A stretch of 64,000 nt of DNA. It comes from Escherichia coli. GTDB taxonomy: Bacteria > Pseudomonadota > Gammaproteobacteria > Enterobacterales > Enterobacteriaceae. The notes under the pieces are model-generated. The model saw only the letters and a program-made list of their open reading frames with translations. It searched no databases and was not told the origin of the DNA. The stretch is from the NCBI RefSeq assembly GCF_001677475.2, contig NZ_CP015229.1; one strand, 5' to 3'. Positions 45,144 through 46,210 of this stretch are shown here, piece by piece; positions within the stretch are counted from its first letter, which is position 1; each line of letters starts with the position of its first letter. The translations under genes and the position numbers were made by a program.

Positions 45144-45671
45144 TTATTGATAAGTAAACGTAAACTGCACAACAGTATGGAATTCACCTGCCGTGACCGT
45201 ACCGGTAGGTGTATACATCCGTGCAGCAAGTGGGAAGGTCGCTTTTCTACTGGCCTGGTCGACGTTTACCGTCATTTTACCATTCGGGCTAATTTCCGTT
45301 ATGTGGTCATCCGTCATAATCTGCAGCGCCATCCCGGTGGCATCCCCAAGTGTATTCGCGAACTTCGTCTGGTCAACAAGATCGCTTTCCCCGGTAAACA
45401 ACGCTGTAACACTGCTTGTTGATGCAGGGCAAGAAGATAAATTCAGACTAAAGTTCTGCCACTCACTGGTATGGCCGACCGTGTCGTAATTAACGGCTCG
45501 CGCCTGCTCAAACCTGACAGTTTGATCCTTCGTTTGTGTGTCTATGACACATGCTGATGCTACCACCGTGCCATTAATGTTAATATCAGCCGCTTGGGCA
45601 GAGTGAAATGCACATAAAGGCCAGAGCGTTACCAGTAAGGTAAAAATTGTGGCACTTCGTTGAGTAATCAT
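45144..45671 (-). CDS. Fimbrial minor subunit (FimA-family pilin), distal gene of the accessory operon
   Basis: 175 aa; signal peptide; Cys pair (ASACV...SSCP); C-terminal strand ...VQFTFTYQ typical of chaperone-usher pilins. Confidence 0.75.
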   Translation of the reverse strand: MITQRSATIFTLLVTLWPLCAFHSAQAADININGTVVASACVIDTQTKDQTVRFEQARAVNYDTVGHTSEWQNFSLNLSSCPASTSSVTALFTGESDLVDQTKFANTLGDATGMALQIMTDDHITEISPNGKMTVNVDQASRKATFPLAARMYTPTGTVTAGEFHTVVQFTFTYQ

Positions 45672-45685
45672 GGCGCTAGCACCTG

Positions 45686-46210
45686 TTACTGATAAGTAAA
45701 TGTTGCCTGAACCAGGCCGGTGATTGAACCAGGCATCACATTTCCTTTCGATACAGCCCGCGTACGAAGCTGAAGGTCATAGGCGTGAGAACCAGGAATA
45801 GGGGTATTATTGATTGATGAACCATTACCCAACGTTGTAGAACCATCCTGCGTAGTGAGCTCAAGAGAGAGGTTAGTTGCTGAACCAGTATTGGCGTAGT
45901 TTGTGGCAATATCACCGTCCGGCGTACCAGAGAAAGCGACGCTAAAGCTGGAGGTTGAGAGTGGGCAATTGGTTAATTGCAAAGAGAAGTCTTTCCAGGT
46001 GGATGCGCTTCCCGCAGCCGAAAGAGAATCCGCCTGAATATTATCGCCAATATTTACATTCACGGCACTATTCCCACCATTAACGACGCACGGAGATGCC
46101 AGTACTAATCCATTAATATTGATATCTACCGCATTAACGGAGGAAGCCCCCAGAAGACTGCTGGCGATAACAAATATTATAAACTTACGCTTCCATATTA
46201 TATTCATCAT
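45686..46210 (-). CDS. Fimbrial minor subunit (FimA-family pilin), paralogue of the distal gene
   Basis: 174 aa; signal peptide; shares VDININGLVLASPCVV motif with the 45144..45671 product; C-terminus ...VQATFTYQ. Confidence 0.75.
   Translation of the reverse strand: MMNIIWKRKFIIFVIASSLLGASSVNAVDININGLVLASPCVVNGGNSAVNVNIGDNIQADSLSAAGSASTWKDFSLQLTNCPLSTSSFSVAFSGTPDGDIATNYANTGSATNLSLELTTQDGSTTLGNGSSINNTPIPGSHAYDLQLRTRAVSKGNVMPGSITGLVQATFTYQ

What the first reader, a model, noticed from the sequence alone, without database searches (positions are those of the whole stretch)
45144..46210. Tandem paralogous minor pilins at the operon's distal end
The last two genes encode ~175-aa pilins sharing an N-terminal block right after the signal peptide (VDININGLVLASPCVV versus ADININGTVVASACVI) and near-identical C-terminal strands (QATFTYQ / QFTFTYQ). 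This suggests an ancient tandem duplication giving two adaptor or tip-fibrillum subunits. Their position downstream of the adhesin is unlike the fim order.
Basis: seen in the sequence. Interest (0 to 1): 0.45.

Follow-up and report, generated by a model that had tools for sequence, protein, structure and literature searches.

The report
Two FimG-like minor pilin genes
The last two genes of an uncharacterised chaperone-usher fimbrial operon encode two distantly related FimG-type adaptor pilins, an old gene pair kept in several enterobacterial genera; this is ordinary fimbrial biology, not a new kind of system.

Summary
Two adjacent minus-strand genes (45686-46210, 174 aa; 45144-45671, 175 aa) end a six-gene operon (major pilin, chaperone, usher, two-domain adhesin, two minors) that lies between fabF and pabC. 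The quoted motifs are exact. The two proteins are 35% identical (84 bits, E 1e-25).

Both are FimG-like tip or adaptor pilins, by sequence for both and by predicted fold for gene 5. The ordered pair is kept at the same locus in 11 of 12 loci examined, spanning eight genera. It also occurs in a separate Serratia fonticola operon and in one on a metagenome contig, so the split is old.

However, they are not demonstrably sister duplicates:
- Each is as close to E. coli FimG/YdeR (79-89 bits) as to the other.
- An exclusive gene5+gene6 clade gets 0-8% bootstrap support.
- Without the donor-strand and C-terminal motifs, identity falls to 29.5% (50 bits), at the edge of the generic pilin background.

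Placement after the adhesin differs from E. coli fim but matches Sfm and Elf/Ycb here, and Salmonella Fim, Lpf and Bcf from the literature.

Likely role: serial adaptors joining the adhesin to the rod by donor-strand exchange. Interest is low. It is a new member of a known kind.

The parts
45144..45671 (-). Gene 6: 175-aa minor pilin of the 'm6 type', FimG-like. Predicted signal peptide is residues 1-27 and the donor strand is ADININGTVVAS.
   Evidence: ORF. Pfam PF00419 56.8 bits. NCBIfam FimG 109 bits and FimF 69.5 bits. PDB FimG E 2.8e-19. Orthologues are 61-66% identical in 9 other loci. dN/dS 0.18 against another Escherichia allele.
45686..46210 (-). Gene 5: 174-aa minor pilin of the 'm5 type', FimG-like. 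Predicted signal peptide is residues 1-27 and the donor strand is VDININGLVLAS.
   Evidence: ORF. NCBIfam FimG 108 bits. PDB FimG E 1.8e-23. AF2 model matches FimG at TM 0.89-0.91, rmsd 1.9-2.2 A. Orthologues are 49-67% identical. dN/dS 0.09. No PF00419 hit.
46082..46129 (-). Gene 5 N-terminal extension block (VDININGLVLASPCVV), the predicted donor strand plus the first disulfide Cys.
   Evidence: Seen in the sequence. Aligns to the FimG N-terminal extension ADVTITVNGKVVAKPC. The G, A and C positions are invariant in all 21 orthologues and paralogues.
45543..45590 (-). Gene 6 N-terminal extension block (ADININGTVVASACVI).
   Evidence: It matches the gene 5 block at 31/48 nt, with only 5/16 third codon positions identical.
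46217..47212 (-). Two-domain tip adhesin (331 aa from the MNKQRV start; an upstream ATG at 47257 would give 346 aa). The N-terminal half is variable and the C-terminal half is a pilin domain.
   Evidence: ORF. Orthologue alignment. AF2 pLDDT 80. Foldseek top matches are CupB6, FimH, FocH and LpfD adhesins, E 1e-9.
47241..49814 (-). Outer-membrane usher (857 aa).
   Evidence: Pfam PapC_N, Usher and PapC_C, 660 bits. NCBIfam best hits are gamma-type ushers (PRK15193, StiC-, LpfC- and SthC-type models), all below their cutoffs.
49844..50521 (-). Periplasmic PapD-like chaperone (225 aa).
   Evidence: Pfam PapD_N and PapD_C.
50596..51129 (-). Major pilin (177 aa) with donor strand DDGKINFIGDIIES.
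   Evidence: Pfam PF00419 69 bits. First gene of the operon. 26% identical to each minor.
45103..45135 (.). Hairpin flanked by an A-run and a T-run between the gene 6 stop and the fabF stop. It is a predicted bidirectional intrinsic terminator.
   Evidence: Sequence. RNA fold -20.1 kcal/mol, z = -5.7 against shuffles. It was not picked up by the consensus scan.

Best explanation
Genes 5 and 6 encode two distinct FimG-type minor pilins of a type-1-like (gamma-type) chaperone-usher fimbria. Each is exported with a signal peptide and held by the operon's PapD-like chaperone. Each is built into the fibre at the usher by donor-strand exchange: its N-terminal extension (xDININGxVxAS) completes the incomplete Ig fold of the subunit assembled just before it. 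The two-domain adhesin enters first. The two minors then form a short adaptor or tip segment, most likely adhesin - gene 5 - gene 6 - major-pilin rod, which would follow the gene order. The pair is not a recent duplicate. It consists of two old FimG-like lineages, 'm5 type' and 'm6 type', as far from each other as from FimG. They have been kept as an ordered pair under purifying selection, which implies non-redundant roles.

Shown: the gene structure, the FimG-like family assignment, the adhesin, chaperone and usher context, conservation of the pair, and purifying selection.

Inferred: incorporation by donor-strand exchange (from established knowledge of Fim and Pap assembly), the location at the tip, and the order gene 5 before gene 6.
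For: Family:
- FimG is the best NCBIfam and PDB match for both proteins.
- The gene 5 model matches FimG structures at TM about 0.9.
- FimG-like sequences separate from FimA, FimF, FimI, Ycb and Sfm pilins in 92% of bootstraps.

Context:
- The chaperone, usher and major pilin are identified by Pfam.
- The upstream gene product is a two-domain adhesin.

Conservation:
- The same six-gene layout sits at the fabF/pabC junction in other E. coli, S. enterica (including arizonae), Pseudocitrobacter, Pluralibacter, Kluyvera, Citrobacter braakii and K. oxytoca.
- The same m5-type then m6-type order occurs in a Serratia fonticola operon at a different locus and in a metagenomic operon.
- dN/dS is 0.09 for gene 5 and 0.18 for gene 6.

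Order hint:
- Gene 6 is more FimF-like than gene 5 (58 vs 22 bits; NCBIfam FimF 69.5 vs 35).
- K. aerogenes keeps gene 5 but lacks gene 6.
Against: - Nothing here shows expression or incorporation into a fibre.
- The upstream region is AT-rich (GC 0.34), and such operons are often silent in the laboratory.
- The order of the two minors is not determined. In this Escherichia copy their donor strands are identical at every conserved inward-facing position, so the strand alone would not discriminate between acceptors.
- Operons with a single m6-type minor after the adhesin exist (E. hormaechei and S. marcescens plasmids and locus L020). Either type can therefore apparently link adhesin to rod alone.
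- The deep branching of m5 type, m6 type and FimG is unresolved (38-54% support).
Confidence: 0.8

Rival explanations
1. The pair was not made by an in-place tandem duplication. Two already separate FimG-like lineages were brought together by recombination between fimbrial operons.
For: - An exclusive gene5+gene6 clade has 0-8% bootstrap support, and FimG/YdeR group with the m6 type in 38% of replicates.
- Related operons carry only one of the two types, in different positions. m6 type alone follows the adhesin. A single FimG-like minor, which falls outside both the m5-type and m6-type clades, precedes the adhesin in S. ureilytica.
Against: - Wherever both occur they are adjacent and in the same order, in three operon families. 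One ancestral tandem event followed by losses explains this most simply.
- The trees are too weakly supported to exclude sisterhood within the FimG-like group.
Confidence: 0.25
2. A recent or lineage-specific tandem duplication produced two redundant copies.
For: The genes are adjacent, of equal length (174 and 175 aa), and share N- and C-terminal motifs.
Against: - Identity is only 35% at the amino-acid level and 287/525 at the nucleotide level.
- Each gene has its own orthologues at 49-67% identity in other genera, while paralogue identity stays at 31-38% everywhere.
- Third codon positions in the shared motif are mostly different.
- Both genes are under purifying selection.
Confidence: 0.02
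3. One of the two is not an adaptor but a FimI/PapH-like terminator or anchor. Alternatively, the two are alternative adaptors used one at a time, giving two tip variants.
For: - The donor strands are nearly identical, so both could dock on the same acceptor.
- K. aerogenes manages without gene 6.
- Operons with a single minor of the m6 type, or with a single more distant FimG-like minor, exist.
Against: - Neither resembles FimI specifically (38-44 bits).
- Known terminator genes lie next to the major pilin gene rather than after the adhesin (established knowledge of fim and pap).
- Conservation of both genes in a fixed order argues for distinct roles.
Confidence: 0.12
4. The resemblance is only the generic FimA-family signature (donor strand, disulfide, C-terminal strand) with no specific relationship.
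For: With the two motifs removed, the pair has 29.5% identity and 49.7 bits. That is barely above the best non-FimG-like pilin scores (42-47 bits).
Against: - Full-length scores are 84 bits, against 22-58 bits for other pilins.
- Both fall in the FimG-like group, which has 92% bootstrap support.
Confidence: 0.03

Closest known systems
FimG, adaptor subunit of the E. coli type 1 pilus tip (and its F9 homologue YdeR)
   Same: - Best match for both proteins: 35-37% identity, 79-89 bits; PDB E 1e-19 to 1e-23.
- The gene 5 model superposes on FimG at 1.9 A.
- The donor-strand pattern is the same (I-x-[IV]-x-G-x-V-x-A-x-x-C), as are the disulfide and the C-terminal strand with its aromatic residue.
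   Different: - Both score below the NCBIfam FimG equivalog cutoff (108-109 vs 220 bits).
- The mature N-terminus is two residues shorter.
- There are two FimG-like genes and no FimF-like gene.
- The genes lie after the adhesin gene rather than before it.
Elf/Ycb operon of E. coli K-12 (elfA-D-C-G, ycbU, ycbV, ycbF) and its Salmonella counterpart Bcf
   Same: The layout is the same: major, chaperone, usher, large adhesin-like gene, then two roughly 175-aa minor pilins. The Bcf order comes from established knowledge.
   Different: - YcbU and YcbV are not FimG-like and not orthologous: 37-49 bits to genes 5 and 6, while YcbV scores 90 bits to FimF.
- The BcfE and BcfF models score 21-45 bits.
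- Elf and Bcf carry an extra chaperone gene, which is absent here.
Sfm (E. coli) / Fim (Salmonella) and Lpf operons
   Same: The adhesin gene is followed by a minor pilin gene (sfmH-sfmF; fimH-fimF and lpfD-lpfE from established knowledge). The usher and chaperone here score highest against Lpf-, Sti-, Sth- and Fim-type models.
   Different: These operons have only one minor after the adhesin. SfmF scores 40-42 bits and the LpfE model 22-36 bits.
Serratia fonticola operon annotated 'putative fimbrial protein SthD' (locus L018)
   Same: It has six genes in the same order, with an m5-type minor (48% identity, 124 bits to gene 5) followed by an m6-type minor (101 bits to gene 6).
   Different: It sits at a different chromosomal locus, in a different family (Yersiniaceae), and next to regulator genes. 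It is uncharacterised.

Membership tests
Chaperone-usher pilin (Pfam PF00419 'Fimbrial') | Score at or above the Pfam gathering threshold (25.6 bits) | tested here: met
   This row is for gene 6: 56.8 bits, E 4e-15.
Chaperone-usher pilin (Pfam PF00419 'Fimbrial') | Score at or above the Pfam gathering threshold, gene 5 | tested here: not met
   No PF00419 hit even at E <= 10. The precomputed Pfam for its 96%-identical relative P0001 does list PF00419. Membership of the fold class is shown by other means.
Chaperone-usher pilin (structural definition) | Incomplete Ig-like pilin fold with an N-terminal extension | tested here: met
   Gene 5 AF2 model: residues 39-174 have pLDDT 70-93 and the N-terminal 38 residues are unstructured. 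Foldseek against FimG gives TM 0.89-0.91, rmsd 1.9-2.2 A. Gene 6 was not modelled; it matches FimG by sequence at E 3e-19.
Chaperone-usher pilin (sequence hallmarks) | Signal peptide, alternating hydrophobic donor strand, conserved Cys pair, C-terminal strand with penultimate Tyr | tested here: met
   All are seen directly in the sequences. G34, C41, C82 and F171-T-Y-Q174 are invariant across 21 sequences. Signal-peptide cleavage was not run through a predictor.
FimG (NCBIfam NF052363, equivalog) | Score at or above the curated cutoff of 220 bits | tested here: not met
   108.2 bits for gene 5 and 109.2 bits for gene 6. They are FimG-like but not FimG equivalogs.
FimF (NCBIfam NF052362, equivalog) | Score at or above the curated cutoff of 200 bits | tested here: not met
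   35 bits for gene 5 and 69.5 bits for gene 6.
Sister tandem duplicates | The two genes are each other's closest relatives (an exclusive clade) | tested here: not met
   The exclusive clade is recovered in 0/200 bootstraps with 174 taxa and 8% with 45 taxa. Closer relatives exist in other operons: P0044 at 124 bits to gene 5 and P0045 at 125 bits to gene 6.
Gamma-1 chaperone-usher fimbriae (Nuccio and Baumler usher clades) | Usher falls in the gamma-1 clade of an usher phylogeny | tested here: inconclusive
   No usher tree was built. The highest NCBIfam scores are to Lpf-, Sti-, Sth- and FimD-type usher models (742-874 bits), all below their cutoffs.
Functional tip/adaptor subunit | Physical presence between adhesin and rod in assembled fimbriae | not testable with these tools
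   This needs purification, immunogold labelling, cryo-EM or in vitro donor-strand exchange.

The most novel reading that the evidence does not exclude
This fimbria may build its tip only from FimG-type subunits, with no FimF-type adaptor. Their donor strands are nearly interchangeable, so subunit order or copy number would be set by something other than donor-strand specificity, such as usher or chaperone kinetics or expression level. That could give a variable or polymeric PapE-like tip fibrillum in a type-1-like pilus. Separately, the operon would be an ancestral enterobacterial fimbria at the fabF-pabC junction that typical E. coli has lost and that divergent Escherichia lineages retain.
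Probability: 0.15. Interest if true: 0.35.

Novelty: new member of a known kind. Interest (0 to 1): 0.15.

Why it matters
It matters little beyond cataloguing. The result adds an uncharacterised, widely conserved type-1-like fimbrial operon at the fabF-pabC junction to the Escherichia accessory repertoire. It is absent from all 5,426 complete RefSeq E. coli genomes searched. It also documents a recurring 'adhesin + two FimG-type minors' module.

For people who study donor-strand exchange, the pair offers a natural test case: two adaptors with almost the same donor strand but diverged bodies. For annotation, it shows that 'FimG' labels on these proteins are similarity-based only; both score below the equivalog cutoff.

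Tried and rejected
- Name of the operon. I suspected the 'EFER_1138 / SARI_01025' type that Wurpel et al. 2013 (PMC3559732) describe as shared by E. fergusonii, Salmonella and Citrobacter but missing from E. coli. Their supplementary table places it in the sigma clade, so I rejected it. No paper held fabF, pabC and fimbrial together. Neither gene name occurs in the Yue 2012 main text or supplements, or in the main texts of Cheng 2022 and Khater 2015.
- Recent gene conversion as the cause of the identical DINING motif. Rejected, because third codon positions match in only 5/16 codons.
- The genome-contig scan with the gene 5 alignment used very strict peptide patterns and returned only 5 loci. 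Species-level prevalence of one versus two minors is therefore based on 12 loci, not a census.
- The consensus terminator scan missed the hairpin after gene 6. It was confirmed by folding.
- Megablast and blastn found no copy of the operon in complete E. coli genomes, only weak usher similarity.
- Neighbour-joining trees could not resolve the order of the m5-type, m6-type and FimG splits. No likelihood tree program was available.
- Predicting which minor binds the adhesin was not attempted with AlphaFold. Only single chains can be modelled, and the two donor strands are almost identical.

Full report
**What is at the coordinates.** The window is an E. coli-like chromosome. fabF and the pabC-to-fhuE stretch are 98.5-98.7% identical to E. 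coli genomes. Between fabF (43844-45085, + strand) and pabC (51485-52294, + strand) lies a six-gene operon on the minus strand:

| Gene | Coordinates | Product |
|---|---|---|
| 1 | 50596-51129 | major pilin, 177 aa |
| 2 | 49844-50521 | PapD-like chaperone |
| 3 | 47241-49814 | usher |
| 4 | 46217-47212 | 331-aa protein (346 aa from an upstream ATG at 47257) |
| 5 | 45686-46210 | minor pilin, 174 aa |
| 6 | 45144-45671 | minor pilin, 175 aa |

The finding's coordinates enclose genes 5 and 6 exactly, and the four quoted peptide strings are present verbatim. Gene 6 is followed by a strong hairpin flanked by A- and T-runs (45103-45135; -20.1 kcal/mol, z = -5.7). It would terminate both this operon and the convergent fabF.

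The 331-aa protein has no Pfam hit above threshold. Its AlphaFold model (pLDDT 80) matches two-domain tip adhesins best: CupB6, FimH, FocH and LpfD (Foldseek E about 1e-9). Its N-terminal half is the most variable part of the operon across genera. The description 'two minor pilins downstream of the adhesin' is therefore correct.

**How similar are the two?** BLASTP gives 35% identity over 167 residues, 84 bits, E 1e-25. Each scores only 26% and 44-47 bits against the operon's major pilin.

In an all-against-all comparison with fourteen pilins, eleven of them from E. coli K-12, the scores separate into two ranges:
- Against FimA, FimI, FimF, ElfA, YcbU, YcbV, SfmA, SfmF and YdeS, the two proteins score 22-58 bits.
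- Against FimG and its F9 homologue YdeR, they score 79-89 bits, the same as against each other.

NCBIfam and PDB searches agree. FimG is the top hit for both (108-109 bits; E 2e-23 and 3e-19), although both are far below the FimG equivalog cutoff of 220 bits. An AlphaFold model of gene 5 superposes on FimG crystal structures at TM 0.89-0.91 and 1.9-2.2 A.

The shared N-terminal block is the FimG-type donor strand (FimG: ADVTITVNGKVVAKPC). The shared C-terminus is the family-wide last beta-strand.

In the mature proteins, 17 of 53 identities lie in the motifs. The remaining core is 36/122 = 29.5% identical and scores 49.7 bits. Non-FimG-like pilin cores score 9-47 bits, and FimG/YdeR cores score 57-67 bits. 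The specific relationship is therefore real at subfamily level: FimG-like sequences separate from other pilins in 92% of bootstraps. Between the two genes themselves it is weak.

**Age and nature of the pair.** Homologues of gene 5 led to the same operon at the same fabF/pabC junction in the following:
- other E. coli (three loci);
- Salmonella enterica, including subspecies arizonae (three loci);
- Pseudocitrobacter, Pluralibacter (two loci), Kluyvera georgiana, Citrobacter braakii and Klebsiella oxytoca.

A further Citrobacter sp. contig carries the adhesin 3' end plus both minors, but its flanks were not recovered.

Eleven of twelve loci carry both minors in the same order. Klebsiella aerogenes has the operon without gene 6, with fabF only 65 nt after gene 5.

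Identity across genera, relative to the window copy:

| Comparison | Identity |
|---|---|
| Gene 5 orthologues | 49-67% |
| Gene 6 orthologues | 61-66% |
| Adhesin orthologues | 39-53% |
| Gene 5 vs gene 6 within each genome | 31-38% |

Between two Escherichia alleles, dN/dS is 0.09 for gene 5 and 0.18 for gene 6. Both genes are therefore maintained, and the split predates the spread of this operon through the Enterobacteriaceae.

A profile search of 1.8 billion representative proteins found 88 relatives at E <= 1e-30. In neighbour-joining trees, genes 5 and 6 never form an exclusive clade (0/200; 8%). Each has closer relatives in other operons.

Those relatives again occur as an ordered pair. 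This is seen in Serratia fonticola, where P0044 (48% identical to gene 5) is followed by a 171-aa protein that scores best against gene 6. It is also seen on a metagenome contig, where a 170-aa m5-type protein is followed by P0046.

Operons with one minor also exist. An m6-type minor alone follows the adhesin on E. hormaechei and S. marcescens plasmids and on locus L020. In a S. ureilytica plasmid, a single FimG-like minor that belongs to neither type precedes the adhesin.

The branching order of m5 type, m6 type and FimG/YdeR is unresolved (38-54% support). Mean distances are 1.38 (gene 5 to gene 6), 1.30 (gene 5 to FimG) and 1.51 (gene 6 to FimG), against about 2.1-2.3 to other pilins.

The most economical reading is one very old tandem duplication of a FimG-like gene, followed by divergence and occasional loss. 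Assembly of the pair by recombination cannot be excluded.

**Likely mechanism.** By analogy with the Fim and Pap systems (established knowledge; not tested here), the adhesin lacks a donor strand and is the first subunit at the usher. Each following subunit inserts its N-terminal extension into the groove of the previous one.

I propose adhesin - gene 5 - gene 6 - rod, for three reasons:
- Gene 5 is the member always present at this locus.
- Gene 6 is the more FimF-like of the two (58 vs 22 bits; 69.5 vs 35 bits).
- The order follows the gene order.

This ordering is inference. In this Escherichia copy the two donor strands are identical at all conserved positions (xDININGxVxAS), so the strand itself would not discriminate. 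Single m6-type minors elsewhere show that type can serve alone.

**Comparison with known systems.** The closest characterised protein is FimG. The closest architectures are Elf/Ycb and Bcf (adhesin-like gene plus two minors), but YcbU and YcbV are not FimG-like and those operons carry an extra chaperone.

The adhesin-then-minor order is shared with Sfm and, from established knowledge, with Salmonella Fim and Lpf. The order is therefore unlike E. coli fim but not unusual.

The operon is not the EFER_1138 type of Wurpel et al. 2013, which is a sigma-clade fimbria. I found no published name for it.

The proteins are already in GenBank with generic names: ANO88405 and ANO88406, 'type 1 fimbrial protein', 'adhesin' and, for one relative, 'protein FimG'.

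**Verdict.** These are two conserved, anciently diverged FimG-type minor pilins in an uncharacterised but conventional chaperone-usher operon. It is a new member of a known kind, of low interest.

Noticed in passing
window 45086-51810: The whole fimbrial operon is absent from all 5,426 complete RefSeq E. coli genomes, although the flanks are 98.5-98.7% E. coli. The exact proteins are in GenBank (ANO88405/6/8, a 5.498-Mb E. coli contig). Cluster mates are named E. ruysiae, Escherichia sp. MR, Escherichia sp. 93.0816 and E. coli H605. This suggests a locus typical of divergent or cryptic Escherichia lineages.
   Followed up: partly
window 51485-51810 (5' third of pabC) and 45077-45085 (end of fabF): Ordinary E. 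coli genomes align only from window 51811 onward and only up to about 9 nt before the fabF stop. The divergent segment therefore ends inside pabC. Against another E. coli carrier (L001), the operon and the 5' part of pabC are 90-96% identical at the nucleotide level, while the flanks are 98-100%. GC is 0.34-0.48 inside and 0.49-0.56 outside. This pattern looks like exchange by homologous recombination of a divergent haplotype rather than site-specific insertion.
   Followed up: partly
L008 8001-8590 (Klebsiella aerogenes): The same operon sits at the same fabF/pabC locus but lacks the sixth gene. Gene 5 stops 65 nt before fabF and no remnant of gene 6 is present. K. oxytoca has both genes.
   Followed up: partly
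window 46109-46129 and 45570-45590: In Escherichia both minors begin xDINING after the signal peptide. Orthologues in other genera have NIDITG (gene 5) and DINLSG (gene 6). Third codon positions match in only 5 of 16 codons of the block. This is convergence or co-evolution at the protein level, not recent gene conversion.
   Followed up: partly
window 45686-46210: The gene 5 protein gets no PF00419 hit in this Pfam copy even at E <= 10, although it is clearly FimG-like by PDB sequence search and by predicted fold. Domain-based annotation could miss it.
   Followed up: yes
window 47212-47257: The adhesin ORF has two candidate starts. ATG at 47257 gives 346 aa and overlaps the usher stop by 17 nt. 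ATG at 47212 gives 331 aa beginning MNKQRV with a signal-peptide-like segment. The shorter form is the one called in two other E. coli records.
   Followed up: partly
window 50589-50607, minus strand: A short hairpin followed by a U-rich tail overlaps the stop codon of the major pilin gene. It may be an attenuator that lowers expression of the downstream assembly and minor genes, as described for other fimbrial operons.
   Followed up: no
proteins P0043, P0126, P0180: Three database 'proteins' among the profile hits are chimeric ORFs whose C-terminal part is YdeR fused to YdeS, to a chaperone fragment or to an unrelated protein. They are likely frameshift or assembly artefacts.
   Followed up: no
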